A stretch of 64,000 bases of DNA. Source: a virus (Duplodnaviria > Caudoviricetes). The translations under genes were made by a program, and so were the position numbers. Position 1 is the stretch's first letter, and every line of letters begins with the position of its first letter. Location of the stretch: IMG/VR virus record IMGVR_UViG_2524614649_000001; one strand, 5' to 3'. This document shows, piece after piece, positions 2,722-60,847 of this stretch. The notes beneath the pieces were generated by a model that had not been told where the DNA came from, searched no databases, and saw nothing but the letters and a program-made list of their open reading frames with translations.

Positions 2722-3154
2722 GATATTTGTGGGCGGCTGCGGTGTAGGCCGCGTGGGCCTCTTCCGAGGTTTCGAAGGTTCCGAGGTAGTGGCGTGCGCC
2801 GTTGTCGTCCCTGATGCGGGCGCTGAAGCGCCCGCTGGGCTTTTCTTGAACCCCTTTGAGACCAACCGAGTTGGTCTTTTTCATGCAGCTGTTCTGGGCG
2901 TTCCGGCGCTGGACGGTGACACGCAAGTTTTTGCGGCGGCAATCAAATGTATCGCCGTTCACATGATCAACCACTGTTCCCGGTTTTGCTTTGAGCAGCC
3001 AACGATGAAGGTCGACGTGTCCTTCACCGCGGATGAACGATCGGAAATAGGCCCGTCCATCCGCGTGTCTGCTCTCGGTCCAATTGTAGAAGAAGGCGGC
3101 ACGCCAATCCCCGTCATCGACGAGAACGGGCGTGCCGGAGGAGGCAAATATCAC
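2699..3154 (-). mobile_element. free-standing HNH-AP2 homing endonuclease gene
   Basis: LHRWLL...VDHVNGD.FDCRRKNLR (HNH) followed by KGV...RFSARI...YLGTFET.EEAH.AY (AP2); GTGA overlap with the nrdA stop. Confidence 0.85.
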
Positions 3155-4923
3155 TGACACGCAAGACACTCGTCGAAGTCGATCGGGGCCGCGATCACCT
3201 TCGGCTTATCGAGCGTGTTATCGGCGTCGACAGACCCCGCGAATGCCGCCCGCTTGGCGGAGCGGCTTCTCAGGTAGTAGAGGGACTTGATGCCCAGCTC
3301 CCATGCACGGAAGTGGAGCATCAGGAGCTGCCACACGTCGACGTTCGGCGGGAGGAAGATGTTGTTCGACGCCGCCTGGTCGATGAAGTCCGTACGATCG
3401 GCGGCGAGCTCCAGGAGCCAACGCTGGTCGATCTCGAAGCTCGTCTTGAAGACGTCAGCATCAGGCAGATCGAGATGCTGGACCGAACCCTCGTGTTCGA
3501 GGATCGAGTTCCAGACCGCGTCGGTGTTCTTGCCCTCGGTCTCGAGCACGCGCTCGAGGTGCGGGTTCTTGACAACGTAGCTGCCCGACAGCGTCTTGTG
3601 GGTGTAGATGTTCGCCGGGATCGGTTCGATGCAGGCGCTGGTCCCGCCGCAGATGATGCTGATCGACGCCGTGGGCGCGATCGCCATCTTGCAGCTGAAC
3701 CGTTCCATCACGCCAGCATCGGCAGCGTCAGGGCAGGGGCCACGTTCGCCGGCCAGCACCAGGCTGGCGCGATCGGCGGCGGCGCGGATGTGGCGGAAGA
3801 AGCGCATGTTCCAGCTCTTGGCCATCGCGCTTTCCATCGGGATGCCGCGCGACTGCAGGAAGCTGTGGAAGCCCATGACGCCGAGACCGACCGAGCGTTC
3901 GCGCGCTGCCGAATAGGCGGCCCGGGCCATGCTCGGTTCGGCGCGCTCGATGTAGTCGGTGAGGACGTTGTCGAGGAAGCGCATGACGTCTTCGATGAAC
4001 TGCTCGTCGCCGTTCCACTGATCCCACGTTTCGAGGTTCAGCGAGGACAGGCAGCAGACGGCCGTGCGATCGTTGCCGAGATGGTCGCGGCCGGTCGGCA
4101 GCGTGATCTCCGAGCATAAATTGCTGGTGGTCACCTTCAAGCCAAGCTGGCGGTGATGCTCGGGCATCGCCTTGTTCACATGGTCGATGAAGACGATGTA
4201 GGGCTCGCCGGTCGCAAGGCGGGTCTCGACCAGCTTCTGGAACAGCGTGCGGGCGTGGACTTCGCCGCGCTTCGACCCGTCGCGGGGCGAGCGGAGCGGG
4301 AACATCCGGTCGTCGCGGACGGCTTCCATGAAGGCGTCGGTGACCAGCACGCCGTGGTGCAGGTTCAGCGCCTTGCGGTTGAAGTCGCCGCTGGCCTTCC
4401 GGATTTCGAGAAACTCTTCGATCTCGGGGTGGTCGATCTGGATGTAGACCGCCGCCGAGCCGCGCCGCAGCGAGCCCTGGCTGATCGCGAGGGTCAGGCT
4501 GTCCATGACGCGGACGAACGGAACGATGCCGCTGGTCTTGCCGACGTCGCCGACCTTCTCGCCGATGCCGCGGACATTGCCCCAGAAGGTGCCGATGCCG
4601 CCGCCGCGCGAGGCGAGCCAGACGTTTTCGTTCCAGGTGTTGACGATGCCGTCGAGGCTGTCGTCGACCGAATTGAGGTAGCAGCTGATGGGCAGGCCGC
4701 GGCCGGTGCCGCCGTTCGACAGAACGGGCGTGGCGGGCATGAACCAGAGCTTGGAGATGGCGTCGTAGAGACGCTGGGCGTGGGCGTCGTCGTCAGCGTA
4801 GGCCGAGGCGACACGGGCGAAAAGGTCTTGCGGGCCTTCACCCGGAAGCAGGTAGCGGTCCTTGAGGGTCTCCTTGCCGAAATCAGTCAGCAAGGCGTCC
4901 CGAGAATGGTCGATCTGGACCAT
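3151..4923 (-). CDS. nrdA: ribonucleotide reductase class I alpha subunit (short, no ATP cone)
   Basis: ATPVLSN...PISCYL...SNLCSEI...CCLSSLN...IAPTASIS...KSLYYLRS and C-terminal CLACQ. Confidence 0.95.
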   Translation of the reverse strand: MVQIDHSRDALLTDFGKETLKDRYLLPGEGPQDLFARVASAYADDDAHAQRLYDAISKLWFMPATPVLSNGGTGRGLPISCYLNSVDDSLDGIVNTWNENVWLASRGGGIGTFWGNVRGIGEKVGDVGKTSGIVPFVRVMDSLTLAISQGSLRRGSAAVYIQIDHPEIEEFLEIRKASGDFNRKALNLHHGVLVTDAFMEAVRDDRMFPLRSPRDGSKRGEVHARTLFQKLVETRLATGEPYIVFIDHVNKAMPEHHRQLGLKVTTSNLCSEITLPTGRDHLGNDRTAVCCLSSLNLETWDQWNGDEQFIEDVMRFLDNVLTDYIERAEPSMARAAYSAARERSVGLGVMGFHSFLQSRGIPMESAMAKSWNMRFFRHIRAAADRASLVLAGERGPCPDAADAGVMERFSCKMAIAPTASISIICGGTSACIEPIPANIYTHKTLSGSYVVKNPHLERVLETEGKNTDAVWNSILEHEGSVQHLDLPDADVFKTSFEIDQRWLLELAADRTDFIDQAASNNIFLPPNVDVWQLLMLHFRAWELGIKSLYYLRSRSAKRAAFAGSVDADNTLDKPKVIAAPIDFDECLACQ

Positions 4924-8638: not shown

Positions 8639-8811
8639 AACCCTGACGGCAGTCCATGAGCGGCCTTGACCGTGAGCGGCCCATTGCCACTGTCATGATA
8701 GGTTGTGCCGATGTAATTTCCGTGTCGGTCGTAGTTGACGCGGCTAGATAAGCGGGGGTTGGTCAAGCCCCCGCAGGCACAGTAGCAGCGATAAGAGATG
8801 GTGCTCGTCAT
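8635..8811 (-). CDS. small hypothetical protein (58 aa, not in ORF track)
   Basis: MTSTISYRCYCACGGLTNPR...; TGATG coupling to the ligase stop and ATGA coupling to the next gene. Confidence 0.55.
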   Translation of the reverse strand: MTSTISYRCYCACGGLTNPRLSSRVNYDRHGNYIGTTYHDSGNGPLTVKAAHGLPSGL

Positions 8812-9884
8812 CACAGCGTCCTCTCAGCACCGTGGAACTTCGTGACGACCGGGAAGCGCGGGACGCCGTCCGGGGTCAGGGCGAAGAACCGGACGGTTAC
8901 GACCTTGTGCTGCTCACCAAGAAGGGAAGCCGCGCGCTCACGAGTTCCGCGGATGCCTGCTCCGAAAACGCGACCATCAGGAAGGCGGCAGCTGACGCGC
9001 TTTGCGACGCCCGCCCAGTTGCCGTTGCCCTCGTCGATCGAAATGACCTCATATTCCGCATCCTGGAACTCCTTCCGCTTCAGCAGGCTCTTCGAACGCT
9101 TCTGCTCGTAGAGCGCGTCGAGGCGGACCATCTGGCCTTCGTAACCGGCTTCGAGCCAGCGGCCGTAGAGCTCATCAAGCTCCACCGCGCTCTGCACCAG
9201 GACGGTTTCGACCGGGACGATCCAGCCGCAGGCGAGCGACTTGAACATCGTCGCCAGATCGTCCGCGCGGAAGCGGAACGGGCTGTTGCCGACCGAGGGC
9301 ACGTCGTAGACGTGATACTGCATCACGGCTTCCGCCTTCTCGAGGTCGGCCGCCGACGGCTTGGCCTTGCGGACGATCGAGCTGATCTCGCCGAAGTCAT
9401 CCTTCAGGTCGTGGTTGTAGAGCTCGCCGTCGAGGATCAGGCCGGGGTTGGCCTCGAACAGCGGCGCGAGCGCGGCGTGGATATGCGGCACGGCGGTGAT
9501 CGGCTTGCCCTGGCGGGAGAACATGCCGTCCTTGGTCGTGATGCAGCGGATGCCGTCCAGCTTCGGCTGGGCGAAGACCGGGAACGAGGTCGGCGCATAT
9601 TCCTTCGCCAGCATCGGCTTGAAGAAGTGCGCGCCGCCGTCCGTCGCCTCGATCGTGCGATGATATTCGCGCGTCAGCTTGTTGTCGTAGGCCGACTTGA
9701 TCTCGAAGTTGGCCTGCGCCTCGTCGGTCGACTGGCTGGCGGCTTTGGCCTGCGTCCAGCCGGTCACCGCGAGGGTGCCGTCGACGAGGCCGGAGTGGAC
9801 GCGGTAGCGCGAGCCGTCCTGCTCGATGAACCAGGTCCGGAGCCGGCCCTGGCTATCACGCTTGTAGATGCGATCGTGGTTCAT
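8811..9884 (-). CDS. ATP-dependent DNA ligase
   Basis: KPMLAK, QPKLDGIRC (adenylation KxDG), LDGELY, YEGQMVR, LLKRKEF motifs. Confidence 0.95.
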   Translation of the reverse strand: MNHDRIYKRDSQGRLRTWFIEQDGSRYRVHSGLVDGTLAVTGWTQAKAASQSTDEAQANFEIKSAYDNKLTREYHRTIEATDGGAHFFKPMLAKEYAPTSFPVFAQPKLDGIRCITTKDGMFSRQGKPITAVPHIHAALAPLFEANPGLILDGELYNHDLKDDFGEISSIVRKAKPSAADLEKAEAVMQYHVYDVPSVGNSPFRFRADDLATMFKSLACGWIVPVETVLVQSAVELDELYGRWLEAGYEGQMVRLDALYEQKRSKSLLKRKEFQDAEYEVISIDEGNGNWAGVAKRVSCRLPDGRVFGAGIRGTRERAASLLGEQHKVVTVRFFALTPDGVPRFPVVTKFHGAERTL

Positions 9885-23693: not shown

Positions 23694-23863
23694 CAGAGGG
23701 TCACTCCTTCGTCGAGGCAGAGCGCGCGGCGGGCGTCGAGCACGGCGCGCAGGTGTTCGTGGTCGATCCGCGGCAGCGGGTTGTTGAGGGTGCGCGGGCC
23801 GGAATAGGTCCGGTGCCCGGGCGCGGGCTTGGCGGGCGCGCGGGTGAAGAACTCAGTCCGCAT
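23693..23863 (-). CDS. small hypothetical protein
   Basis: starts MRTEFF; TGATG coupling. Confidence 0.45.
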   Translation of the reverse strand: MRTEFFTRAPAKPAPGHRTYSGPRTLNNPLPRIDHEHLRAVLDARRALCLDEGVTL

Positions 23864-24188
23864 TGGCGATCGCCTTGTCGATGAGAGCGAGGACGTCGGC
23901 GTGAGTGGTCTCGGGGTCGTCGTTGAATTGGAGGTGGTTGCGGCCTGCGAAGTTAGAGAGCCGGTCGGCGGCGTCGCGATATTCCCCGAAGCGATACGGG
24001 TTCGAGGTGTTGACCTCAGGGTGCAGCTCGTGGGCGGCGCGGATGAGGGCGCCGTCCAGGCAGAAGCAGCGGGCAACCGGCTCGGTCGGGTCGATGAAGT
24101 ACCCGTTGTCGTCGCGGGCGAAGCTGTCCTTCGTCCAGTGCTCGGGGTCGGCGAGGATTTCGCGGACGCGGATGAGGAGGTCAGGCAT
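23853..24188 (-). CDS. DUF6197-like protein, paralogue 1
   Basis: W.K...A...CFCL.GAL...FND...TTHADVLALIDKAIA. Confidence 0.7.
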   Translation of the reverse strand: MPDLLIRVREILADPEHWTKDSFARDDNGYFIDPTEPVARCFCLDGALIRAAHELHPEVNTSNPYRFGEYRDAADRLSNFAGRNHLQFNDDPETTHADVLALIDKAIANAD

Positions 24189-24519
24189 CGGCGATCGCCT
24201 TGTCGAACACGGCCAGCACGTCGGCGAGGGTGGTGGTGTCGGCGTCGTTGAACTCGGTCACGAGGTCGAAGGTGGTGTCGCGGTCGGCCGTCGGGTCCAG
24301 CGCACGGGCGAGCGCGAGGCTTTCCGGCGTCTCGGTGAGCAGGATGTCGGCGGTGCGGTTGACGACGCCCAGCGCGCCGAGCATGCAGAAGTGACAGGTC
24401 TCGGCGTCGGCATAATTGTAGTTCATAGCCACGCCGTGTGGATCGGCGGCGTAGCAGCCGCCTTGGGTCCACTGACCCTTGGCGAGGATTTCGCGGGCTT
24501 TGATGAGAGTGTCACGCAT
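24181..24519 (-). CDS. DUF6197-like protein, paralogue 2
   Basis: W.QG..A...CHFCMLGAL...FND.D.TT.ADVLAVFDKAIA. Confidence 0.7.
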   Translation of the reverse strand: MRDTLIKAREILAKGQWTQGGCYAADPHGVAMNYNYADAETCHFCMLGALGVVNRTADILLTETPESLALARALDPTADRDTTFDLVTEFNDADTTTLADVLAVFDKAIADA

Positions 24520-24697
24520 CGATTTGGTCTCCAAAGGCGAGACGGACGAGGCGGTGGGCCTCGGTCTCGTCGGGGTTCATGCTGTCGGCCATGTCACCGC
24601 GGGCGCGGTGGGTGATGTAGGCAAGGTTGGGCTGGCCCTGCTTGCTGAAGGTGCGCTCGGCACGCTTCAGCTCGCAGGCGAGGAAGGGATTGATCAA
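24512..24697 (-). CDS. hypothetical protein
   Basis: 61 aa, coupled. Confidence 0.55.
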   Translation of the reverse strand: MINPFLACELKRAERTFSKQGQPNLAYITHRARGDMADSMNPDETEAHRLVRLAFGDQIDA

Positions 24698-25008
24698 AGA
24701 CCGAGCACCTCGACGGGCTTGGTGGTCGACAGCGCGAAGAGGAAGGTCTCCTCTCCGGCGTAGACCGAGCGGTGCTTGAGGTGCGAGACGTGGAAGCTGC
24801 CCTTGACGCGCCGGCCGTCCTCGAAGCTGAGTTCGTAGAGGTCGGAGCGGCCGGTCACGGCGTCGGACAGTGCCTGGTCGCGGGCCTGCTTGCTGACGAA
24901 CACACCGGTCCCGGCGAGGGTCATCTTGCCAGGCGGGTTGTGGGTGACTTCGTCGGTCTTGAGACCGGCGATGGTGTGGCCGTCGCGTTTGACGAGGTAG
25001 GCGGTCAT
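24694..25008 (-). CDS. truncated TP901-1/GTA-type tail-tube protein homologue in the early region
   Basis: AYLVK.DG..TIAGLKT...N and LAG.GVF...Y.LSFEDG...G.F.V..L.....Y.GE..F...L....PV; GGAGG SD; TGATG coupling. Confidence 0.6.
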   Translation of the reverse strand: MTAYLVKRDGHTIAGLKTDEVTHNPPGKMTLAGTGVFVSKQARDQALSDAVTGRSDLYELSFEDGRRVKGSFHVSHLKHRSVYAGEETFLFALSTTKPVEVLGL

Positions 25009-25307
25009 CAGATGGCCTCCTTGCGGGCGCGGGCGACGGTCTCGATCTTGCGACAGGTGGGGAAGGCGTCCCCGTCCCAGTTGACCAGCACCTTCTGGTT
25101 TTCGCAGTCGAACCCGATGAGACGGGCGCGCAGGCTCACGACCTGGCTCTCGGCGAGCTCGTTGACGGTGAGGGTGTCGGGGTTCGCGACGACGGCACCG
25201 TTGTGGACGACGATGACGTTGTCCCAACGGTGCTCGCGCTCGTTGAGGAAGTTGCCGGTCAGGATGCCGATGGCGCCAATCATGGCGGGGATGATGAAGC
25301 GGTGCAT
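25008..25307 (-). CDS. hypothetical protein with N-terminal hydrophobic anchor or signal peptide
   Basis: MHRFIIPAMIGAIGILTG. Confidence 0.6.
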   Translation of the reverse strand: MHRFIIPAMIGAIGILTGNFLNEREHRWDNVIVVHNGAVVANPDTLTVNELAESQVVSLRARLIGFDCENQKVLVNWDGDAFPTCRKIETVARARKEAI

Positions 25308-25437
25308 GGGGTGAACTCCGTCCTATAAGGATTTTTCTTACTAACTTATTTTCTTAGACTCTATAACCAGATGAATTAAAAAGAGTAAGAGAAACAGTTA
25401 GTTAGACTATCCTTGGGTGAGGGGGATTTGATGGGAT

Positions 25438-25453
25438 TTGGGAAATTTCCCAA
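25438..25453. repeat. 16-bp palindrome TTGGGAAATTTCCCAA, copy 1
   Basis: exact self-complementary sequence. Confidence 0.9.
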
Positions 25454-25506
25454 CTGTCCGCTCCCAGAAAGTGGGAAATTTCGCTAACAGTTGGGATTGG
25501 GGACAA

Positions 25507-25519
25507 GTGACCTAGTCAC
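25507..25519. promoter_or_regulatory. GTGAC-N3-GTCAC palindromic site
   Basis: GTGACCTAGTCAC (reverse complement of GTGACTAGGTCAC). Confidence 0.7.
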
Positions 25520-25530
25520 TCGAAAAAATC

Positions 25531-25944
25531 CTATAAGGCGCGAGTCCGACCACGGGCCGCAACCAGCCGCACACCGGTCAAAGGGTCGAAAATGACGTTT
25601 CGCCGCCACCGCCAGACCTTTTTCGGGTGAACACCCAGTTCACGGGCAATGGCCGCGGCCGACCTCTTGTCGTTCTTGAGGTCGAGCTGCGTCCACAGCG
25701 GCGCGGCACCGGCATAGTCCGGACACACGGCGGCGATCATCTTCAAACCATCTCCTGGGAGGAGGCTTTCTGCGAGCACCTGGCCCTCGGCCGGGTCGGC
25801 GGCGTCGATCATATTGGTCAGACCCTTGCGGGCCTTGGGACCGATGCCGCCGAGCGCGTAGACCCACTCTATAGGAATACCGGGCGTCGTCGCGAGCAGC
25901 ACGAGGTCTGCCCGCGACGGGCGCTTAAGCAGTTTCGAGAGCAA
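25531..25944 (-). CDS. protein with C-terminal HTH
   Basis: SAAAIARELGVHPKKVWRWRR. Confidence 0.65.
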   Translation of the reverse strand: MLSKLLKRPSRADLVLLATTPGIPIEWVYALGGIGPKARKGLTNMIDAADPAEGQVLAESLLPGDGLKMIAAVCPDYAGAAPLWTQLDLKNDKRSAAAIARELGVHPKKVWRWRRNVIFDPLTGVRLVAARGRTRAL

Positions 25945-26188
25945 GGTTGATGATCGGCCGTTCGATTTTCATGACCATCGCCTTGGACCGGCCGAGGGCG
26001 CGGACGAGGCTCTGGGTCGTGAGGACAGGGTAGCGCGCGGCCTCCAGCAGGTCATACATGCGGTTGGCGTGGATGGCGAAGCCGGCGTCGTCGCCGGCAC
26101 GGCCGCACCGCAGCGCCTGCTTGGCCTGCCACTCGGCGAGGCTCGCGACCTTGGCGATCGGCAGGGTGGGAATGAGGGTCGTGTTCAT
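25925..26188 (-). CDS. hypothetical protein
   Basis: ATG 26188 with GGAGGA SD. Confidence 0.65.
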   Translation of the reverse strand: MNTTLIPTLPIAKVASLAEWQAKQALRCGRAGDDAGFAIHANRMYDLLEAARYPVLTTQSLVRALGRSKAMVMKIERPIINLALETA

Positions 26189-26698: not shown

Positions 26699-26716
26699 TT
26701 TGGGAAATTTCCCAAA
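26699..26716. repeat. TTGGGAAATTTCCCAA palindrome, copy 2 (18 bp)
   Basis: TTTGGGAAATTTCCCAAA. Confidence 0.9.
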
Positions 26717-27258: not shown

Positions 27259-27290
27259 ACCCTGCTTTGGGAAATTTCCCAAAGCAGGGT
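27259..27290. repeat. TTGGGAAATTTCCCAA palindrome, copy 3, extended to a perfect 32-bp palindrome
   Basis: ACCCTGCTTTGGGAAA|TTTCCCAAAGCAGGGT. Confidence 0.9.
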
Positions 27291-27299
27291 TGCGGGCGA

Positions 27300-28013
27300 T
27301 TAACCGTTGACGGCTTCGGCTTCGGCTTCGCCTTCGGCTTCAAGGGCGCGATTTTCCGCCGCGCGGATGGCTTCCATCAGGGCGAACAACGCCTTGTCGG
27401 CCGCAATGACTTCGGCAACGTCGGCTTCGGCAAGGCGAAGCGCCAGTCGCTCGGCCATGACGGCAAGCGGAGTCGTCGCAACCGCTTCGCCCGTCGCTTC
27501 GCCTTCGCCTTCGCCTTCGCCTTCGCCTTCGCCTTCGCCTTCGCCTTCCGCTTCGCCCTTGTCGGCCTTGGCGGCTTCGCGGCGCATCGCGGCCATTTCA
27601 TCGCGCAAGGCATAAAGCGACTTCGGCGCATCGGGCGATGCGGTGATGAACGCCACCAGTCGCGGCTTGAACGTGTCGGCGATGCGGCCCGCTTCGGCTG
27701 CTTCAATCATTTCCAGACACAGCGTCGCTGCCTTGCGGACGGCATCGCCACCCTTGGCATAGCGAAGCGATGAGAGGCTATCGCCCGCCTTGCCGTTCGG
27801 CTTTTTCGGCTTGAACGTGGCGAGCAAGGCAGCCGTCAAGTCGCCTTCGGTCATCGCCTTGGTGTAGAGGCCGAACAGGGTTGCTTGCCCCCATGCCGAA
27901 CGGGCATTCTCGCTAGCGACTTCTTTCTGGCGTAGGGCTTCGGTCGTGACGGCATAGTCGGCTGCATTGAAAGCTTCAGCCGAAAGGGCAATGGTGCTGG
28001 TTTCATTGGTCAT
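27300..28013 (-). CDS. Ala/Glu-rich hypothetical protein with (GE)8 tract; probable first early gene
   Basis: ATG 28013 (MTNETSTIAL) with AAGGAAA SD; Glu encoded mostly by GAA. Confidence 0.7.
   Translation of the reverse strand: MTNETSTIALSAEAFNAADYAVTTEALRQKEVASENARSAWGQATLFGLYTKAMTEGDLTAALLATFKPKKPNGKAGDSLSSLRYAKGGDAVRKAATLCLEMIEAAEAGRIADTFKPRLVAFITASPDAPKSLYALRDEMAAMRREAAKADKGEAEGEGEGEGEGEGEGEGEATGEAVATTPLAVMAERLALRLAEADVAEVIAADKALFALMEAIRAAENRALEAEGEAEAEAVNG
27498..27545. repeat. hexamer tandem repeat (TTCGCC)x8
   Basis: 8 perfect units encoding Gly-Glu on the minus strand. Confidence 0.95.
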
Positions 28014-28040
28014 GGTATCGTTTCCTTTTCCGTTGCTGCC

Positions 28041-28056
28041 TTGGGAAATTTCCCAA
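28041..28056. repeat. TTGGGAAATTTCCCAA palindrome, copy 4
   Basis: exact; 28 nt upstream of ATG 28013. Confidence 0.9.
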
Positions 28057-28065
28057 AGGCCGTTG

Positions 28066-28189
28066 GCATGAGACGGGCACGCGCCGAGGCCGAGCGAGAG
28101 GACAGTCCCGCGCGCTTCAGACATAGCTAGCCCCAACCCCTTCGGGGTTTGGGTGGGCGTTGCGCCTCGCTGTGTGTTCCGTCTCATGC
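28066..28189. ncRNA. candidate structured RNA or long leader hairpin
   Basis: GCATGAGACGG/CCGTCTCATGC closing stem, inner CGAGGC/GCCTCG, apical AACCCC-TTC-GGGGTT. Confidence 0.35.
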
Positions 28190-28400
28190 GATTGTTCTGA
28201 CAGAAACAGTGACCACTAAAAGAAAAACTTCTCATGCCATAGTAACACACCCCGATAGGTGACTAAATGACGTGTCAAGCACTAAGAAACCTTTGTTTTC
28301 AGGCACTTAGGCCGGAAGGGTGCCACCTTTTTTGCCCCAGATTTTTTCACTTAGAGGGAGATCATGCCCCAAATATCCCGGGGAAATTTTCGCGTTTTTC

Positions 28401-28471: not shown

Positions 28472-30919
28472 TTAGGCAGCTTTGGCCAGAGTAGGCACAG
28501 TAACCTTCAATCCGACGACTTTGTCGCGCGTCACGAGCATCTCGTCCTGATATTCGATCACCCGGTAGCCCAGGCCCTCGAGCATCGTCTTGAACCGCTC
28601 GAAGGTGACGCCCATGCCGCGGCTGACATCCTTCATGTAGAAGAGATACTGGTCGAACACCGTGCGGCAGTCCGCGACCGAGGCTTCGTCCGGACGGACG
28701 CGCTCGCACGACTGCAGGAACGCGGCCACGCTGTTGTTCGAGCGGAGCACCAGGTTCTCCAGCCGCTTGTGCGACTTGGGCAAGGTATATTCCCGCTGCT
28801 CCAGCAGACGCTTCAAGCCGTCGACCGCCCACGCGGCGATCGCCTCGCGCTCTTCCGAGATCACGACCTCGGCGAAGTTCAGGATGCGCTCGCTCTCGGG
28901 GACCTTCCTCGTGAACTCGAAGATGATCCAGCGGCGGATGAAGCCATCCGAGGTGTCGCGCGAGCGCGGCAGGTGGTTCGAGGCGAACCAGTGCGCCGCC
29001 ATCGGCGGGAACGTGAACCCGTCCTTGCCCTTGTATTCGGTGTCCTGGCGCTCGCCGCAGACGATCCCCTTGAACCGCTCGCCCGCGATCATCGCGTCTT
29101 CCGGCAGCTCGCCGCAGACGTTGAGCACCTTGCCGACCAGAGCCGTCAGCGCGAACCGCTCGCCCCATTTGTGCGGGGGTAGGGCGCAGACCGCGTTGTC
29201 GGGCATCATCGCGTCGAGGATTTCCAGCACCTGGCTCTTGCCGGTCTTGCCCGGGCCGTAGAGCAGGATCGCGCGCTGATACTCCGGCGCGATGCCGAAC
29301 ATGGTGGCCGCGATGACCTCCTGCAGCGCCGCGACCTTCTCGTTGTAGTCGGCGTCATCGCCCCACGCGCTCTCCAGCATGCCGAGGAAGCGGTGGCACT
29401 CGTGGCGGCGCTCGGGGATGTAGTTGAACGGCAGGGTGAACGTCTTGCCGAAGTGCGGCGCGTGGTCGTGCAGCTGCAGCGACATGTCGAGGAAGCCGTT
29501 GGCGAAGTTGATGCCGAGCTCCGGATTTTCCTCCAGCGGCATGTTGACCAGCGCGCTGATCGTCTTGACGATCGACGCATAGTCGTTGTGGCGCCGCGCC
29601 AGCGCGTTGCCCTTCACCCGCTCCGCGATGTGGCGGTAGATGTCGTTGTCGTCGAGCATCCCGAAGCACGACCCGTTCCACTGCCAGAAGGCACCCTGGT
29701 CGTGACGCAGCTCGCCGCCGCGCGAGATGTCCTCGATCACCATGCGGGCGATCGCCTCATGATCTTCCGCCGCCCCGTCGCCGGAGCCGACGCGGGCCAT
29801 GACGAACATCTTCTTGAGGGCGGGCTTCGACATCTTCACCGCCCCGAGGGCATTGACCAGCACCGGGATCAGCGCGTCGAAGTGGTGCTCGGCGAACTGC
29901 TCGTCCTTCGCGACCTGAGCCACCAGCTCCTCGACCTTGGTCAGCGCCCAGTCGTCGTCGGCGGGCTTCGCCGAGACCTGCTCGTTGATCCAGTCGCGGG
30001 CGCGGGAGAAGGTCCAGCGTTCCGCCTTGTTCTTCTCGGCGATCGCCGCGATCGTCGGGTGGGCCAGCTGCTCTTCGGTGAGACCCGCGTCCCAGCCTTC
30101 CGGCAGCGTACGGCCGCCTTCGATGTCCTTCAGCAGGAACTCGAGCAGTTTCGCGATGCCCTTCTGGGGGTCCATGTCATCACCCGCGACGCCCGCGGTG
30201 AAATTCTCGACCCAGTGGTGCATGTGCTGCATCGCTTCCGACAGCGACCACTTCTCGTTCTTGTCGAGACCGAACACGACGCGCGCCAGGTAGCCCGCGT
30301 GGCGGACCAGCTGAATATCACGCTCGCCGGCCGGGACGACGTCGAGCGGCTTCGAGCGCCCCTCGTGGGCGAGCGACACGCCGCCCTTGACGCCGAGCGC
30401 CTCGCGCAGCTGCGTCTCGATGGTCACCGGCAGCACCGGGATTTTGTCCATCACCTCCCACAGGTTGGTGTTGGCGGTATACGCCTCGCCCGTATCGGGG
30501 TGGATCGACGGCGGCAGCACCATCTGGTTGCCCAGACCGAGGAACTCGCAGATCATCCCCTCGTCCGAGCGGATTTTGAAGTTCTTCTGGCCCTGCCAGC
30601 GGTAAATCAGCGCGCAGCCCTTCGCACCGACACGGCGCCACGGGGTCATCGGGAGGCAGTCCTCGATGATCTCGACCAGCTCGGGGTCGGTGGTGTCGAT
30701 GTCGATCGCGCACAGGCCCGAGGCAGGACCGAACGGCAGGCCGATGTTCGAGCGGGGGTAGGTTTCCAGCCAGTGGCCGCGGACGGCCGCGGACGGCATG
30801 TTGGTGCCATACTGGGTCCACTCCGACAGGATCGGAGCCTTGCTGCGGACCTTGAGCGGCATGGCGGGGAGACCCGCCTCCCAGTAGAGCGGGGCAAATT
30901 CACGGAAGACGTTGGACAT
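28472..30919 (-). CDS. bifunctional primase-polymerase fused to D5/P4-type SF3 helicase
   Basis: N-terminal NIGLPFGPASGLCAIDID...TP.RRVG.KG; C-terminal LYGPGKTGKS, LVGKVLNVCGEL, FASNHLP, D.SDGF.RRW. Confidence 0.9.
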   Translation of the reverse strand: MSNVFREFAPLYWEAGLPAMPLKVRSKAPILSEWTQYGTNMPSAAVRGHWLETYPRSNIGLPFGPASGLCAIDIDTTDPELVEIIEDCLPMTPWRRVGAKGCALIYRWQGQKNFKIRSDEGMICEFLGLGNQMVLPPSIHPDTGEAYTANTNLWEVMDKIPVLPVTIETQLREALGVKGGVSLAHEGRSKPLDVVPAGERDIQLVRHAGYLARVVFGLDKNEKWSLSEAMQHMHHWVENFTAGVAGDDMDPQKGIAKLLEFLLKDIEGGRTLPEGWDAGLTEEQLAHPTIAAIAEKNKAERWTFSRARDWINEQVSAKPADDDWALTKVEELVAQVAKDEQFAEHHFDALIPVLVNALGAVKMSKPALKKMFVMARVGSGDGAAEDHEAIARMVIEDISRGGELRHDQGAFWQWNGSCFGMLDDNDIYRHIAERVKGNALARRHNDYASIVKTISALVNMPLEENPELGINFANGFLDMSLQLHDHAPHFGKTFTLPFNYIPERRHECHRFLGMLESAWGDDADYNEKVAALQEVIAATMFGIAPEYQRAILLYGPGKTGKSQVLEILDAMMPDNAVCALPPHKWGERFALTALVGKVLNVCGELPEDAMIAGERFKGIVCGERQDTEYKGKDGFTFPPMAAHWFASNHLPRSRDTSDGFIRRWIIFEFTRKVPESERILNFAEVVISEEREAIAAWAVDGLKRLLEQREYTLPKSHKRLENLVLRSNNSVAAFLQSCERVRPDEASVADCRTVFDQYLFYMKDVSRGMGVTFERFKTMLEGLGYRVIEYQDEMLVTRDKVVGLKVTVPTLAKAA

Positions 30920-43041: not shown

Positions 43042-43069
43042 CCCTCTGCGGTGATTGAAGGGTTTTCGC

Positions 43070-44023
43070 ATGTCCAGCTTCCGCCTGCGGTTCAGGTTCA
43101 ACCAACAGTCGAAAGCCTCGACGAAAGGCCTCGGCGGGACGCGTGGCGGCGACAACTTCTCGCGCGTCATCGTCGAGGACGTGGCCTTCTCCTATTCGGA
43201 GGGTCTCTTCAAAAAGCTGAAGGCCGACATTGGCGGGCGCATCCACGGGGATGTGGACAAAGAGCTCGCCCACATGGCACGCATGTTCATGAGCGGCGTC
43301 GTCGGCATCGCCGGGCGCAACCGGGGCGCCACCGGCATCCTCACGGCCAAGTCGCCGAAGGCTGACATGTTCAACGAGAGCCTCTACGTCCCGGTGCGGT
43401 CGGTAGCCGGCACCTGGCCGCGTCGCAGCCCCGACTATCTGAAGTGGCGGAAGCGGCGTGAGGACGGGGGAGACCCGAGCTGGTTCCACCGTAAGGGCAA
43501 CGTGCTGGCGAAGCTCGCCTCGGCGAAGACCTGGACCAGCGCCTACGGCGGCATCACCGTGACCGTGAAGCGGCACACGAGCTTCGGCCCGTCTGACCCG
43601 GCCGCCCGCGGCTTCAACACACGCCTCGGCGGGACCCGCGGCGGCAACGCGCGCGTCGGTGTCGCTACGATCCGCGTCGATGCAATGGGCGGGATCACCC
43701 CGGCGATGCTCCCGGCGACGGGGGGCGGCGCGCTAGGCGACTTCGGGGCCAACCCGCGCAGCAACGGTCTGCTCGACAAGCTCGGCGACGACATTGCCTA
43801 CCGGCTCGGCGGTGACCCGCTGCGCGTCCCGTTTCGCCCGACGGTCCAGCCGTTCCTGGCGTTCTTCCTGACGCGCCAGCTGCCGAACGCCGTCTTCAAG
43901 CGCATCGAGCAGGGCCTCGACGGCAAGCTGCTCAACGACAACACCGGCTCGGCCGGTCGCGCGTCGAAGGGGCGTTACTCGGAACGGTCGCTGTCGCTCA
44001 AGGATTACTCGCCGCGGCGGTAA
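43070..44023 (+). CDS. hypothetical virion/neck protein
   Basis: basic, Gly-rich; ATG 43070. Confidence 0.6.
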   Translation: MSSFRLRFRFNQQSKASTKGLGGTRGGDNFSRVIVEDVAFSYSEGLFKKLKADIGGRIHGDVDKELAHMARMFMSGVVGIAGRNRGATGILTAKSPKADMFNESLYVPVRSVAGTWPRRSPDYLKWRKRREDGGDPSWFHRKGNVLAKLASAKTWTSAYGGITVTVKRHTSFGPSDPAARGFNTRLGGTRGGNARVGVATIRVDAMGGITPAMLPATGGGALGDFGANPRSNGLLDKLGDDIAYRLGGDPLRVPFRPTVQPFLAFFLTRQLPNAVFKRIEQGLDGKLLNDNTGSAGRASKGRYSERSLSLKDYSPRR

Positions 44024-44101: not shown

Positions 44102-44338
44102 GTGTCCAAAAAGACCCATCGCAGTTTCACCCTGCGCGTCGATACCGACTTCTACCTCACGCTCGCCGCGTCGGCGCAGGCCGAGGGCATCCCGCTCAAC
44201 CAGCTGGCCAACCGGCTCCTTCGTCTCGGCATGGACAAGCACGTCTCGCTCGAGAAGGCCATCACCTCGCTGCTCCTCGACCGCATGGTTGACGACCCCG
44301 AACTCAAGGCCGCGATCGCCGCACAGGTGCAGGCATGA
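44102..44338 (+). CDS. Arc/HicB-C-like ribbon-helix-helix DNA-binding protein
   Basis: SFTLRVD.D....LA..A..EGI.LNQLANRLL; AGGAG SD. Confidence 0.75.
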   Translation: MSKKTHRSFTLRVDTDFYLTLAASAQAEGIPLNQLANRLLRLGMDKHVSLEKAITSLLLDRMVDDPELKAAIAAQVQA

Positions 44339-45230: not shown

Positions 45231-45273
45231 ACCCCACCGTGAACTAGGCACCTCACTCCTGTTGAGAAGCGCC

Positions 45274-48200
45274 ATGAGCACCAATGGCGCCGTCGAGGCT
45301 GATGTCTTTCTGGGTGTGGACGGGCGGCAAATTGATGCCGCCTTCGCCAACATCAATAAGCACCTGTCGCAGATGCAGGGCCAGATCAATGGCATGGGTG
45401 ACAAGCTCAAGTCGACGCTGAACGGCCTCGACGCCCAGATGCTCAAATCCCTGAGCAACCTGAACAAGGCGATCTCGACGCTCGACGCCGCACAGAAGAA
45501 CGTGCAGCGGTTCAACCCGGCGGTCCAATCCGGCCAGAGCTGGGCCAAATACCAGGCGGACCAGAAGCAGGCTCGGGCGGACGAACGCAAGCACATGCGC
45601 GAAGTCGACGCTGCTTACCAGCAGCGCGAGCGGCAGGTGGCCAACGCCGCCGACCGCCGCGCCCGCCAAGAGGCCCAGATGTGGGCGCAGCGGGACCGCG
45701 CGGCCCAGACCGCCGAAGCCAAAGAGGAGCAGCTGGCTGAACGCCGCTGGGCTGTCGCCCGCGCGCGTGAGACCCGGCTCGAGCGTGAGCGCGAGCAGTC
45801 GATGCAGCGCACTTCGCGCCTCGCCGAGCAGAACAATTTCAAGATCGCCCGCGACAAGGTCCAGCAGGAAGTCAAGGCCGCCAGCGGTCTTCGCGAACTG
45901 GACAACCAGCGTCTCGTAGCCGCCGACCGGCTGAACCGCGCCCGCGCCATGCTCGGGAAGTTCGGCGCCGAGGAAGACCGCCAGCTCCTCCAGATGATCC
46001 AGCTGGAGAAGGAACGGCTGGCGCTGGCTGAAGCTCGGATCAAGGCCGACCGGGCGGCGGCGTCGAGCCGCTTCAAAAGCGACGCGGCCGTTGACGGCCG
46101 GCTCAACGTCCGCACCGGCAAGACTGACGAAGCGCAGCTCGCCTCGGCGCTGGGGCTCGGCCAGGCCCGTGCCCGGCAGGCCCAGCTTGAGACGCAGATC
46201 GCAAACCAAATCCAGCGTGCCCGCACCCTAACCGGGGAAGAGAAAGTCGACGCGGAGCGTGTGCTCAAGGTCGACGAAGCCCGGCTTCAGGTCATCAAGT
46301 CGCGCGTGCGCGAGCTTGAGCGTGAAGCGAAGGCGATGGTCCAGTCGGCGCAACCCAAGCCCGGCATGTATGGCCCGCCGACCCCTCCGGGTTTCAAGCC
46401 TCCGGGTGCCCCGCCGGCCCCGCCGAGCGGCGGGGGGCTGGGCGGTCTCTTCGGCAGCGGCGGCATCGGCGGCATCTTCCTCCGCACCGCGGCCTATGGC
46501 GGCGCGGCGGCGGCCATCTACGGCACCATCGCCGCGATCAAGGACGGCATCACCGCCTCGATCCAGTTCCGTGACGAGATCGCCAAGATTGGTGCAGTTG
46601 CGGGGCTGACTGCGTCGCAGCAGGACAAGCTCGCCAGCTCGATCCAGAGCGTCGCCAGCAACTCGCGCTTCGCCACCGACGAAATCGCCCAGGCCACGAT
46701 GGTCATGGCGCAGGCAGGTTTCTCTGCCAGCGACATTACCGACAGTCTGCAAAACGTGGCGAACCTCGCGGCCGCGTCGGGCACCAGCTTCCAAGAAGCA
46801 ACCGACGTCGTCACCGGCGCGATCGGCGCGTTCCAGCTCCAGACCTCGGAAACCGCGCACATCGCCGACACCCTGACGAGCGCGCTGAACACCACCAAGC
46901 TGAACATCCAGCAGGTTGCGCTGGGCATCCAGTATGCGGGTGCGACGGCCTATGAGAGCAAGGTCAGCTTCGAAGAACTGACGGCCGTCATGGCCACGAT
47001 GGCGCAGGCCGGCATCCGGTCGGGTTCGACGATCGGCACCGGCGTCCGCCAGTTCCTGGTCGATCTGCAGACGCCTACCAAGAAGATGACCGCCGAGATG
47101 ACCCGTCTGGGTCTCACGATGGAGGACCTGAACGTCAAGACCTTGGGTCTGCCCGAGGTGCTGCGTCGTCTCGGTGAGGCGGGCTTCGGTTCGGCAAGCG
47201 CCTACGGCTCGCTCGAAACCCGAGCGGCCGCGGCCTACCTGGTCCTGAAGAACAATCAGGGTCTCCTACAGGAACAGATCACGCTGCAGAACAGCCTCGG
47301 CGCCTCGGCCGAAGCCGCGGCGAAGGGCTCGGAGTCGCTCGCCGCCGAGTGGCAGCGTTTCAAGAACCAGCTGAACGAGTCCGTCGACCGTCAGATCAAG
47401 CCCGCGACCGACGCGCTGCGGGACATGCTTCACATGTTCAATGAGATGGGTGCGAACGAAGACCTGCGCCGGATGCGCGAAAATCTTCGCAACCTTGAGG
47501 AGGGCAGCGACGCCTGGATCGCGCAGATCGACGCCATCGAGGCCTACAAGGAAGCCCTCCGGGGTTCGGTTGAAATCGAGGAGGCGCACGCCGAGGCACT
47601 CGACGCAGCCAACACCCGCGTCAACGAAGCGAAGGATGCGCTCGACGCGCAAGAAACCACGATCCAGTCGTCGAGCGACGCGATCTCGCGTCTCGTCCAA
47701 CGCCAGGTCAGCCTCAAGGGGAACAGCGCCGCGCTTGCCGCCGAGACGGCGACGCTGGAGTCCCGCTTCGAAGGTCTGGCCTCCCAGCTGTATGGCACCG
47801 CCGCGAGCTACGAGAACCTGATCCTCGCCATGCAACGCTACCGGAAGGAAGCGATCGCAACCGGCGCGCTCAAGTCGGCCGAGCTGTCGATGGCCTACGA
47901 CCAGAAAGCGCGGGCACAGGGCGACAAGGCCGGGGCTTACGCCAACCGCCTTATTGCCAACGGCACCTACCAGTCGCTTCCCAAGGATGTTCAGAACGCC
48001 ATCGTCAGGTTGGCGAACAACCCGCGCGGTCCCGAGGCGAACACGTTGGGCATGCTGATCAGTGACTACGCCAACAAGCGGGGCACTGGTCTGAATAAAA
48101 TCCAGCAGGGGGACCTGCGTGCCTACGCCCTGAACGCCACCGGGGCGGGGCTCTCGGCGGTCTACCGCGATCAAGCCCGCAACCAGAGCTACATCTACAA

Positions 48201-51000: not shown

Positions 51001-51840
51001 ATGTCGGCACCGAAGAAGAACGCTTTCATGCTCTCCAGCGCCACTCTGATGATGTGCCGCTATGGGGACACCCCCGTTTTCGATCTCACCCCGGCGCTGC
51101 ATGGCGTGGGCCTGTCGGAAGAGATCGCCGTCAACCTGGACAGCTCGAACGTCGACCTGACCGCCGGCATCGCGCAGGCGATCGTCGACAGCCAGCGCGT
51201 GAACGTGCAGGCGGGCATCACCGGCACGGTGAAGGAATACAGCCCCGAGAACCTGCTGCGCGCACAGGGTCTCGCGACCGGCGCCGTCACGACCCTTCGT
51301 GGTAAGCTGACCGCCCCGGCCGCCGCCGCTGCTGTCTCGCTGTCGGTAGCGACCGACCCGATCCCGGGTGACCCGTCGAGCGACATGGGCACCGCCGCAG
51401 CTGCCGTGAAGGCCGGCTCGGTCGTGCTGATCCAGGACCCGGCGACGCCGGAACTGGTCTTCCCGGCCCGCGTCAAGGCGGACTCGACCTATGCGGCCGG
51501 TGTCCACACTATCTCGATCGCCGACACGCCGCTCCCGGCGGGCATGTCGTTCCCGGTCGATGCGAAGATTTGGGTCGTGACCGAGATGGCGGTCGGCGCG
51601 ATGGGCAACACCGATCTCTTCTCGGTGAAGATCGTCGGCACCCTGTCGAACTTCAATCGCCCGATCGTCGCGGTCTTCCCGAAGGTCCAGGTGACCAAGG
51701 GCTTCAACCTGACCTTCTCCGAGAAGGAATACGGCACGATGCCGTGGGAAATGCGCCCGCTGCTCCTGTCGGCCTCGGAAGCCACCGGCCGCCTGGCCGA
51801 GATCGGCACCAAGGCGCCGGGCAAGGTCTACGCCGCGTAA
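51001..51840 (+). CDS. probable major tail tube protein
   Basis: strong GAGGAG SD, own terminator, Ala/Thr/Val-rich, FPKVQVT.GF.L.F...YG.MPWE..P. Confidence 0.65.
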   Translation: MSAPKKNAFMLSSATLMMCRYGDTPVFDLTPALHGVGLSEEIAVNLDSSNVDLTAGIAQAIVDSQRVNVQAGITGTVKEYSPENLLRAQGLATGAVTTLRGKLTAPAAAAAVSLSVATDPIPGDPSSDMGTAAAAVKAGSVVLIQDPATPELVFPARVKADSTYAAGVHTISIADTPLPAGMSFPVDAKIWVVTEMAVGAMGNTDLFSVKIVGTLSNFNRPIVAVFPKVQVTKGFNLTFSEKEYGTMPWEMRPLLLSASEATGRLAEIGTKAPGKVYAA

Positions 51841-59137: not shown

Positions 59138-60026
59138 TGTCGTCGATCGCCGCGTAGAGATCGTCGAGCGTGCCGTGGTTGCTGATGACATAGTCGGGAT
59201 TGAGCAGGTCCGTGCGCTCGCTCGGATGCACACCCCACATCGACCCGAAGACGTCGTAGAGGAACTTGCCGAGCTTGTGCTTGAACGCCACCGGACCCTT
59301 GCCCGGGCGTTCGATCATGATCGTGAAGCCCTTCAGCTCGTCCTGGATCGCCCGCTCTTCGTTCGGAAAGCGAACGCTGTCGTTCATCGACCGCGGCACG
59401 CCTTCGCCCTCGACCGCCCAGCAGCGCGCCCACAGGTCGTTGTTGACCAGCTCGCGCCCCCACTCGGTGCCGAGCGTGATCTGCGCGCGACGACTGGTGA
59501 TGCCGAGGCACGGGATCACCTCTTCCTTCAGGTCGCCCGTCAGGTAGCGATCGATCAGCACGTCATCCATCTTGAACCGCCGCAGCAGCGTGCGGAGCAT
59601 GTCGCGCAGCGGCTCGGCGATGTGCCGGCGCTGGTAGCCATACTGGCTCTCGATGTAATTCGCCGCCTCGGTCTTGCCCGTTCCGGCGAAGCCCGACAGC
59701 CCGATCGCCGACGGCCCCATGAACTGGTAGCGAGCCCAGCTGTCGTCGCTGCCCGGCGTGCTGACGTAGATCGAGCCGTCGAAGCCGGTCGTGCGAGCCG
59801 CCAACGCCTCGCCAATGGCGACGGTGTCGTCGAAGTTGCCCTCGTCGAGGTTCGCAAGCAGCGCCAGCCGCTCACGATCCGCCTCGGCGTGGATGCCGGT
59901 GAAGTCCGCGTAGAAGCGGGGAGCCTGACTGGCGAAGGCCGCGAAGCCTTCGTCTATGCCAGCGTCGACGCCCTTTTTCGGTGCAGGGACGGGCATGGCG
60001 AACCCGCCTTGGTTCGCCGCGCTCAT
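59088..60026 (-). CDS. deoxynucleoside monophosphate kinase-like protein with N-terminal extension
   Basis: [40 protein letters not shown]. Confidence 0.85.
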
Positions 60027-60847
60027 ACCGCCACCTCCGCTTTGATCGGAGGATGCGGATCGTAGCCGATCAGCTCGAAGTCCTCGAACGAGTAAGTGTG
60101 GACCTCGTTCACCGTCTCACGGATTTTCAAATAGGGCGACAGGCGAGGCGTGCGCGCCAGCTGTTCAACCGCCTGTTCGACGTGGTTATTGTAAAGGTGG
60201 ACGTTGCCGCCGGTCCAGATGAACTCGCCTACCCGCAGACCGACCTGGTCTGCGATGATGTGCGTCAGCAGCGCGTACGACGCGATGTTGAACGGGACCC
60301 CGAGGAACATGTCCGCCGACCGCTGGTAGAGCTGGCAGTTCAGCTTGCCGTCATTCGTCACGTCGAACTGGAACAGGCAGTGGCACGGCGGCAGCGCCAT
60401 CTCGTCGACCTGCGCCGGGTTCCACGCCGTGACGATGTGGCGACGGCTGTCGGGGTTCTCGACCAGACTGATGATCACGTCGTCGATCTGGTCGATCACG
60501 CCGTCATCGCAGAAGCCGATCGGACCCGCCGGCCAGCTGCGCCACTGCGCGCCATAGACCGGACCAAGCTCGCCGTTCTCGTCGGCCCACTCGTCCCAGA
60601 TATGCACGCCCGCTTCCTGAAGGCTGCGGACGTTGGTCTCGCCGCGCAGGAACCAGAGCAGCTCCTCGACGACGCCCTTCCAGAAGACACGCTTCGTGGT
60701 CAGCAGCGGGAAGCCCTGCTGCAGGTCGAAGCGCATCTGGGCACCGAAGAGGGCGCGGGTGCCGACGCCAGTGCGGTCGGTGCGCTTCTCCCCGTCCCGA
60801 AGGACGCGGAGCAGCAGCTCGCTATAGGTGCGGTCGTGCTGGCTCAC
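60023..60847 (-). CDS. thyA: thymidylate synthase
   Basis: [59 protein letters not shown]. Confidence 0.97.

What the first reader, a model, noticed from the sequence alone, without database searches (positions are those of the whole stretch)
24694..25008. Early gene encoding a GTA-type tail-tube homologue lacking the polymerisation loop: candidate tail-assembly decoy
Seen in sequence: a 104-aa coupled ORF with a good SD, MTAYLVKRDGHTIAGLKTDEVTHN-PPGKMTLAGTGVFVSKQARDQALSDAVTGRSDLYELSFEDGRRVKGSFHVSHLKHRSVYAGEETFLFALSTTKPVEV. It lies among early genes about 26 kb from the phage's own, unrelated-looking tail tube gene (51001-51840). From recall: it aligns end to end with alphaproteobacterial RcGTA-like/TP901-1-family tail tube proteins (AFLLK.GDG...TVAGLRTTQLSIN-[GEAVDITNKDSGGWRELLSGAG]-VRSVSVSGAGVF...DDYELSFESGE.MRG.FLVTRLDYAGDFNGERSY.LSLESSGPV). 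The bracketed ~20-aa segment is replaced here by about 4 residues. In siphophage tubes that segment corresponds to the extended beta-hairpin loop that locks rings together. Inference: a captured host-GTA or prophage tube gene edited into a non-polymerising subunit. It could poison or cap tail assembly of host GTA particles or co-resident prophages, or act as a decoy for defences that sense tail-tube monomers (DSR2 is known to be activated by a tail tube protein).
Basis: partly seen in the sequence, partly recalled or inferred. Interest (0 to 1): 0.88.

Follow-up and report, generated by a model that had tools for sequence, protein, structure and literature searches.

The report
Loop-less tail-tube copy among early genes
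An ~82-kb phage sitting in a bacterial chromosome carries, among its early genes, a shortened copy of a tail-tube protein that has lost the loop that stacks tube rings; it belongs to a small family I found no description of, and may sabotage rival tails or blunt host sensors, which nothing here tests.

Summary
Window 24694-25008 (minus strand) encodes a 104-aa protein that is a true homologue of TP901-1/RcGTA-type tail tube proteins (PF06199). A profile-profile comparison gives probability 100% and E 1.8e-43. The AF2 model (pLDDT 94.7) best matches the RcGTA tube, Z 11.1. The one large difference is a 22-column gap that removes the long beta2-beta3 loop. That loop is the main ring-to-ring contact in tail tubes. 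DSR2, Avs16 and HigBAC all use it to sense tubes.

This is not a one-off edit. About 30 loop-less representatives exist. In all nine contexts I could read, they lie in early or accessory gene arrays and never in tail modules.

In this phage group the gene is accessory. The cassette (99-aa gene plus tube copy) sits between two conserved genes and is missing from 10 IMG/VR relatives. The phage's own tube (51001-51840) belongs to a different family (Z 16.2 to the phage Mystique tube).

The host has no GTA hallmark gene, no other PF06199 tube and no SIR2_2 domain, so "poisoning host GTA" is unsupported here.

Function is inferred only: a non-polymerising tube mimic, either a chain terminator of rival tails or an immune decoy.

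The parts
24694..25008 (-). Gene for the 104-aa loop-less tail-tube paralogue (P0001)
   Evidence: ORF, translation and coupling. hhalign against canonical tubes gives probability 100% with a single 22-column gap. AF2 pLDDT 94.7; RcGTA tube Z 11.1.
25008..25307 (-). 99-aa ORF translationally coupled to the tube copy (ATGA overlap); part of the same accessory cassette
   Evidence: No Pfam, PHROG or PADLOC hit. No homologue was detected in the syntenic regions of five complete relatives; G401 and G402 show the flanking genes in direct succession.
25308..25530 (.). AT-rich intergenic region upstream of the cassette, holding the 16-bp palindrome TTGGGAAATTTCCCAA (25438-25453) and a degenerate copy (25471-25486); putative promoter/operator
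   Evidence: The 14-mer core occurs only 4 times in the 2.55-Mb genome, all at window 25.4-28.1 kb.
25531..25944 (-). 137-aa HTH_23-like protein; conserved upstream flank of the cassette
   Evidence: Pfam HTH_23 E 1.6e-4, below cut-off. Homologues flank the short tube in L001, L005 and L206, and are present in relatives without it.
25925..26188 (-). 87-aa protein; conserved flank
   Evidence: 69-71% identical next to the short tubes of L001 and L005. Present in 5 of 5 complete relatives.
24512..24697 (-). 61-aa protein; conserved downstream flank. In relatives it directly follows the HTH gene.
   Evidence: G401 and G402 have the order g87-HTH-g61-DUF6197.
51001..51840 (+). The phage's own tail tube protein, of a different family (Mystique/YSD1/SPR type)
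   Evidence: AF2 pLDDT 76.5. VIA Z 16.2 to 9n71_A, the phage Mystique tail tube. tblastn hits in Seuss-like phages. The Seuss homologue sits before the chaperones and tape measure.

Best explanation
The gene encodes an assembly-incompetent paralogue of a TP901-1/RcGTA-type tail tube protein. It keeps the beta-sandwich and helix that make the subunit and its side-by-side contacts. It has lost the long beta2-beta3 loop and most of the N-terminal arm, the two elements that tie one ring to the next.

It is an accessory cassette placed directly behind a phage-specific operator/promoter in the early arm, so it should be made before any tail genes (inferred; no expression data).

Most likely it works as a mimic of tube subunits: it engages partners of PF06199-type tube monomers but cannot extend a tube. 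It would therefore act as a chain terminator or sequestering subunit against tails of competing elements in the same cell, such as superinfecting or resident siphophages, or GTAs in hosts that have them. The phage's own tube belongs to another family and would be spared.

Shown: homology, loss of the loop, fold, genomic context, accessory status. Inferred: early expression, failure to polymerise, the target.
For: - Homology and the exact gap.
- Fold.
- The loop beta2-beta3 gives the largest inter-ring contact. Deleting it abolishes tube formation in T5 and tube growth in SPP1, and yields hexameric rings in YSD1 (PMC8718954). In RcGTA the long loop links successive discs (PMC7296036).
- The N-arm is shortened: median 4.5 residues in short forms against 8 in canonical ones. 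The FLLK-to-GIF spacing is 31-43 against 55-65, with no overlap.
- Many short forms stay 50-65% identical to GTA-type tubes outside the gap. That fits a need to stay compatible with them.
- All nine readable contexts are early or accessory arrays, not tail modules.
- The gene is accessory: 0 of 10 IMG/VR relatives have it, and the cassette lies between genes that are adjacent in G401 and G402.
- The phage's own tube is a different family.
- dN/dS is 0.58 against the 63%-identical homologue.
Against: - There is no experimental or expression evidence of any kind.
- The present host has no PF06199-type tube or GTA to poison, so a target would have to come from outside.
- P0001 itself is among the most diverged members (about 27-37% identity to canonical tubes), so co-assembly with them is uncertain.
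- Poisoning tails does not save an infected cell, so the benefit must come from competition between phages or at the population level.
Confidence: 0.38

Rival explanations
1. Immune decoy or sensor blocker. Made early, the loop-less tube-fold protein occupies host sensors that recognise tail tube monomers without switching them on. This protects the later burst of real tube protein.
For: - DSR2 binds monomeric tube D1. A tube lacking loop 1 (beta2-beta3) still gives a complex, but NADase activity drops (PMC10981675).
- The phage's own tube resembles the SPR tube seen in DSR2 complexes (Z 8-10).
- Short forms sit beside anti-restriction-type genes: Lar, RadC, orphan methyltransferases and MazG.
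- Its accessory status and fairly fast evolution fit an arms-race gene.
Against: - Avs16 contacts mainly the beta-hairpin, and the HigBAC escape mutation lies in the same loop (PMC13581612; bioRxiv 2024.02.24.581848). A loop-less protein should not titrate those sensors.
- The decoy belongs to a different tube family from the phage's own tube.
- The host has no SIR2_2 domain.
- There is no PADLOC hit nearby.
Confidence: 0.25
2. A tube-fold protein recruited to a function unrelated to tails, for example a ring or monomer acting in DNA metabolism, host take-over or regulation.
For: Neighbours in several phages are replication and recombination genes: helicase, PDDEXK nuclease, DNA polymerase A, primase. 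YSD1 tube without the loop forms free hexameric rings. Hcp rings are close structural matches (Z 9-10.8).
Against: Short forms remain acidic like real tubes (median pI 5.4 against 5.1), so there is no shift toward DNA binding. The gene is dispensable in 10 relatives, so it has no core role. Tube-family motifs are strongly retained.
Confidence: 0.2
3. A minor structural or assembly protein of the phage's own tail (such as a cap, terminator-like ring or assembly regulator) that merely lies outside the tail module.
For: Terminator, stopper and distal tail proteins share this fold (PMC7296036). Gene order in this phage is already unusual, with the tube gene downstream of the tape measure.
Against: It is on the opposite strand in the early arm. 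It is absent from 10 relatives with the same tail genes. Its sequence family differs from that of the phage's own tube.
Confidence: 0.05
4. A decaying remnant of a tube gene with no function.
For: It is rare. Its Pfam score is below threshold. dN/dS is not very low (0.58).
Against: The ORF is intact, with SD and coupling, and GC3 is 0.90. The same in-frame loop loss is kept across about 30 representatives down to about 30% identity. The position is conserved in four related phage fragments. The AF2 fold is confident. No other tail genes lie nearby.
Confidence: 0.04

Closest known systems
RcGTA tail tube protein g9 (Rcc01691, PDB 6TBA) and the TP901-1 family major tail proteins (PF06199, TIGR02126)
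   Same: Clear sequence homology. Same beta-sandwich plus helix fold (Z 11.1). Shared motifs such as YELSFEDG.
   Different: Lacks the 17-22-residue beta2-beta3 long loop and most of the N-arm. It is 104 aa rather than about 135. It is encoded in an early accessory cassette, not between the terminator and the chaperones/tape measure. It falls below the Pfam cut-off and has no NCBIfam hit.
Engineered loop-deletion mutants of tail tube proteins (T5 pb6, SPP1 gp17.1, YSD1 MTP; lambda gpV loop mutants), as reviewed in PMC8718954
   Same: The same structural element is missing. Those mutants fail to form or extend tubes, and the YSD1 mutant forms hexameric rings.
   Different: Those are laboratory constructs of real tube genes. 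This is a natural, conserved gene family with its own genomic niche.
DSAD1, the phage inhibitor of the tube sensor DSR2
   Same: A small early phage protein proposed to stop a tube sensor from firing. The tube without loop 1 shows that binding without activation is possible.
   Different: No sequence similarity was detected. The short-form profile found only the RcGTA tube among PDB sequences. The paper describes DSAD1 as acting allosterically on the open sensor domain. No DSR2-like gene is present in this host.
Hcp of type VI secretion
   Same: Same fold, and a ring former (Z 9-10.8).
   Different: No sequence relationship. The protein is plainly derived from PF06199 tubes.
Structural-protein homologues used by satellites to interfere with helper assembly (for example the capsid-fold protein Ccm of SaPIbov5; from my own knowledge, not checked here)
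   Same: The principle: a copy of a virion building block is used to derail another element's assembly.
   Different: It is a tube, not a capsid. It is carried by a phage, not a satellite. No interference has been shown.

Membership tests
PF06199 / TP901-1-family major tail (tube) protein | Significant sequence match to the family | tested here: met
   hhalign of the short-form profile against a canonical profile gives probability 100%, E 1.8e-43. The profile against PDB sequences finds the RcGTA tube at E 3.6e-14. The single sequence alone is below Pfam's cut-off (19.2 against 23.8 bits) and has no NCBIfam hit.
PF06199 / TP901-1-family major tail (tube) protein | Tail-tube beta-sandwich fold flanked by one helix | tested here: met
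   AF2 pLDDT 94.7. 6tba_50 gives Z 11.1, rmsd 3.3, 101 aligned residues. BFVD hits are tube proteins.
PF06199 / TP901-1-family major tail (tube) protein | Long beta2-beta3 loop that makes the inter-ring contact | tested here: not met
   A 22-column gap, skipping chain residues about 43-59. The model has a 3-residue turn at residues 25-27. Spacing is 31 residues against 55-65 in canonical tubes.
PF06199 / TP901-1-family major tail (tube) protein | Encoded in the tail module, upstream of the chaperones and tape measure | tested here: not met
   It lies on the opposite strand in the early arm, between an HTH gene and DUF6197 genes. The neighbours of all short forms share nothing with canonical tail/GTA loci.
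PF06199 / TP901-1-family major tail (tube) protein | Polymerises into the virion tail tube | not testable with these tools
Anti-defence decoy of tube sensors (DSAD1-like function) | Binds a tube sensor and prevents its activation | not testable with these tools
   Only an analogy with the DSR2/tube-without-loop-1 result. No SIR2_2 domain in the host. No PADLOC hit.
RcGTA-type gene transfer agent component | Lies in a GTA head-tail cluster of a genome that carries GTA hallmark genes | tested here: not met
   No GTA_TIM (PF13547) and no second PF06199 match in the complete host genome. No GTA_TIM in two genomes of the same family.

The most novel reading that the evidence does not exclude
Phages carry a dedicated family of 'disarmed' tail-tube subunits that lack both the stacking loop and the immune epitope. 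They would be expressed early as molecular mimics, either to terminate the tails of rival phages and GTAs or to blind tube-sensing immunity. This would be mimicry of a structural protein used as a weapon by a phage.
Probability: 0.35. Interest if true: 0.85.

Novelty: new variant of a known kind. Interest (0 to 1): 0.66.

Why it matters
Tail tube proteins are known as building blocks and, more recently, as triggers of bacterial immunity. DSR2, Avs16 and HigBAC all read the same beta2-beta3 loop.

A natural, conserved tube copy that lacks exactly that loop, and is encoded where accessory and counter-defence genes sit, gives two directly testable ideas. One is dominant-negative sabotage of competitors' tails. 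The other is a silent decoy for tube sensors. Either would add a new class of phage accessory function. It would also supply a natural ring-only or monomer-only tube variant for studies of tail assembly.

If neither holds, it is still a clean example of a virion protein recruited to a non-structural role.

Tried and rejected
- No RNA holder was listed by the look-up of sequencing runs, so there is no expression information.
- PHROGs, NCBIfam and PADLOC gave no hit for the protein.
- The search for related loci with the broad alignment A2 failed for lack of a conserved stretch.
- Scans of IMG/VR and GTDB genomes with narrower queries returned only canonical tubes, mostly 13-16-kb GTA-like clusters and Sphingomonadales genomes.
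- tblastn of two short forms against 50,697 phage records found only canonical tubes and one truncated fragment.
- A sample of 401 genomes of the host's class gave an end-to-end match only in the window's own genome.
- The genome search could not reach the metagenome contigs that carry other short forms. So I could not test whether those phages have PF06199-type tubes of their own.
- The idea of a basic, DNA-binding ring was dropped because short forms are as acidic as real tubes.
- My first guess that 43055-44023 was the tube gene was wrong. It has no phage hits and a poor Atlas model. 51001-51840 is the tube.
- Multi-stretch hits of the profile in 1,200-2,300-aa proteins were not pursued. 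I suspect a chance likeness of the YELSFEDG stretch to a repeat.
- The tree of 61 proteins is poorly resolved over 112 columns. Leaving out P0024 in the second AU test was decided after seeing the tree.

Full report
**The feature**

Window 24694-25008, minus strand, is an intact 104-aa ORF (P0001). Its ATG overlaps the stop of an upstream 99-aa ORF (ATGA), and AAGGAGG lies 8 nt upstream. GC at third codon positions is 0.90, as expected for a real gene in this 64% GC DNA.

**Homology**

- Pfam PF06199 (Phage_tail_2) matches residues 29-94 only weakly: E 0.0013, 19.2 bits, cut-off 23.8.
- PHROGs and NCBIfam give nothing.
- The collection clustered at 90% identity holds one close relative, P0002 (63% identity, 102 aa, metagenome).
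- An HMM search of 1.8 billion representatives found 79 proteins at E <= 0.001.
- A profile of 22 short relatives (A2) against 16 canonical tubes (A4) gives hhalign probability 100%, E 1.8e-43. The 114 aligned columns are interrupted by one 22-column gap.
- The same profile against all PDB sequences finds only the RcGTA tube protein Rcc01691 (E 3.6e-14). It matches in two stretches that leave out chain residues about 43-59.

**Fold**

AF2 with A2 gives pLDDT 94.7 and pTM 0.84. The order of elements is strand 3-8, strands 11-24 and 28-37 joined by a 3-residue turn, helix 40-52, then four more strands.

The best solved match is the RcGTA tail tube in 6TBA: Foldseek E 2.3e-5; VIA Z 11.1, rmsd 3.3, 101 of 130 residues aligned. 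Lambda gpV, other siphophage tubes and Hcp follow at Z 9-10.8. BFVD matches are tube proteins.

**What is missing**

The review of major tail proteins (PMC8718954) makes these points:
- The GTA tube has one long loop beta2-beta3.
- Deleting it abolishes tube formation in T5 and tube growth in SPP1.
- In YSD1 its deletion yields hexameric rings.

The RcGTA paper says the long loop links successive discs (PMC7296036).

The N-terminal arm, a second axial contact, is also shorter: median 4.5 residues before the FLLK motif in short forms against 8 in canonical ones. Note that the 118 canonical rows are mostly close kin.

The parts that make a subunit and a ring are kept, and the parts that stack rings are gone.

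**A family, not a single edit**

- The distance from FLLK to G[IV]F is 31-43 residues in 30 short proteins and 55-65 in 118 canonical ones, with no overlap.
- A tree of 61 proteins is poorly resolved.
- The AU test rejects one clade for all 34 short rows (p 9e-5). It does not reject one clade once P0024 is left out (p 0.29). P0024 is a near-copy of a canonical tube on a 567-bp, low-coverage contig. That exclusion was post hoc.
- Some short forms are close to GTA tubes outside the gap. P0083 is 64% identical to a 135-aa canonical tube of the Erythrobacteraceae-dominated GTA group, with a clean 22-residue gap. Others reach 50-62%.
- P0001, P0002 and P0012 are the most diverged lineage.

**Context of the short forms**

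Every context I could read is non-structural:
- L001, L005 and L206: small-ORF arrays.
- L088: dCTP deaminase, PDDEXK nuclease, SNF2 helicase, DUF927 primase.
- L089: small-ORF array.
- L090: helicase, PDDEXK nuclease, AAA_24, ParB-methyltransferase, DNA polymerase A.
- L203: Cro, SSB, NinB, methyltransferase, MazG, DHFR.
- L204/L205: Lar, nucleoside deoxyribosyltransferase.
- L209: small ORFs.
- P0009 is followed by RadC.

ORFs around the short forms share nothing with canonical GTA or tail-module loci except the tube copy itself. Control canonical loci share about 90-100 ORFs, shadow frames included.

**Context in this window**

- The phage is a relative of the roughly 80-kb Seuss-like siphophages.
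- Prim-Pol (28472-30919, minus strand) is transcribed divergently from terminase (31579, plus strand), as in Seuss.
- The target lies in the leftward early arm: 87-aa gene, 137-aa HTH-like gene, a 223-bp AT-rich spacer, 99-aa gene, tube copy, 61-aa gene, then two DUF6197 genes.
- The spacer holds the palindrome TTGGGAAATTTCCCAA. Its 14-mer core occurs four times in the whole 2.55-Mb genome, all at 25.4-28.1 kb and each just upstream of a gene start.
- The 87-aa and HTH genes also flank the short tube in L001, L005 and L206.
- Ten IMG/VR relatives have no match to the short-form profile. Nine are at least 92% complete, they measure 77-83 kb, and their own-tube proteins are 44-67% identical to this one. 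The same kind of search finds the gene in the window's own genome at E 1e-30.
- In two of these relatives the order is 87-aa, HTH, 61-aa, DUF6197.
- So the 99-aa gene plus tube copy is an accessory cassette inserted at a variable spot directly behind a putative promoter.

**The phage's own tube and the host**

Window 51001-51840 is the true tube. AF2 gives pLDDT 76.5, with a low-confidence loop at residues 49-67. The best match is the phage Mystique tail tube at Z 16.2, with YSD1, Chi and SPR tubes at Z 8-10.7.

The complete host genome has no other PF06199 match, no GTA_TIM gene and no SIR2_2 domain. Two genomes of the same family lack GTA_TIM.

**Mechanism (inferred)**

Three published tube sensors use the missing loop:
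- DSR2 needs loop 1 for activation, yet still forms a complex with a tube lacking it (PMC10981675).
- Avs16 contacts the beta-hairpin (PMC13581612).
- The HigBAC escape mutation lies in the gpV beta2-beta3 loop (bioRxiv 2024.02.24.581848).

The protein is therefore predicted to be unable to polymerise and poorly visible to such sensors.

My ranking of the explanations:
- Chain terminator or sequestering mimic against PF06199-type tails of competitors: 0.38.
- Immune decoy: 0.25.
- A function unrelated to tails: 0.20.
- A role in the phage's own tail: 0.05.
- A remnant with no function: 0.04.

Three observations bear on this ranking:
- Accessory status argues against a core role.
- The acidic charge (median pI 5.4 against 5.1) argues against a DNA-binding ring.
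- dN/dS of 0.58 fits a constrained but fast-evolving accessory gene.

**Novelty**

Six full-text searches found no description of loop-less tube paralogues in early regions. The library is incomplete, so this shows only that I found none.

Noticed in passing
window 25438-25453, 26700-26715, 27267-27282, 28041-28056 (degenerate copy 25471-25486): A perfect 16-bp palindrome, TTGGGAAATTTCCCAA, sits just upstream of four successive minus-strand gene starts. The 14-mer core occurs nowhere else in the 2.55-Mb genome. It is probably the operator of a phage regulator controlling early or middle units.
   Followed up: partly
whole window; G000:C1:1379331-1443330: The window is most of a Seuss-like siphophage lying inside a complete bacterial chromosome; its relatives are 77-83 kb. 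IMG/VR classes some relatives as having direct terminal repeats and others as proviruses. The borders were not determined. The nearest tyrosine integrase is 47 kb to the left of the window.
   Followed up: partly
window 45262-49944 and 51001-51840: The tail tube gene lies downstream of the 1560-aa putative tape measure ORF. In phage Seuss its homologue lies upstream of the chaperones and tape measure. The tail module therefore appears rearranged.
   Followed up: partly
window 23853-24188 and 24181-24534: Two tandem DUF6197 paralogues (phrog_762) lie just downstream of the cassette. Relatives carry one to three copies at the same place.
   Followed up: no
window 44102-44338: A 78-aa ORF with a HicB-family match (E 9e-6) lies inside the tail module, just before the putative chaperone genes.
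   Followed up: no
window 27300-28250: The early protein encoded here contains a run of Gly-Glu dipeptide repeats. The ORF called from the first start codon probably begins too early; a likely start lies near 28010, just after a palindrome.
   Followed up: no
proteins P0003, P0011, P0046, P0068, P0069: Very long proteins (1,200-2,300 aa) match the region around YELSFEDG 5-9 times each. This is probably a repeat that resembles the motif by chance.
   Followed up: no
protein P0014 (126 aa): This protein has the short N-terminus of the P0005 lineage but carries an 18-residue loop of different sequence from the canonical one. The loop may therefore be variable within the early-gene family. Its genomic context is unknown.
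   Followed up: no
window 3151-4923, 8811-9884, 60023-60847, 61332-63248: Ribonucleotide reductase, ATP-dependent DNA ligase, thymidylate synthase and an SMC/SbcC-like ATPase lie within the phage-like region.
   Followed up: no
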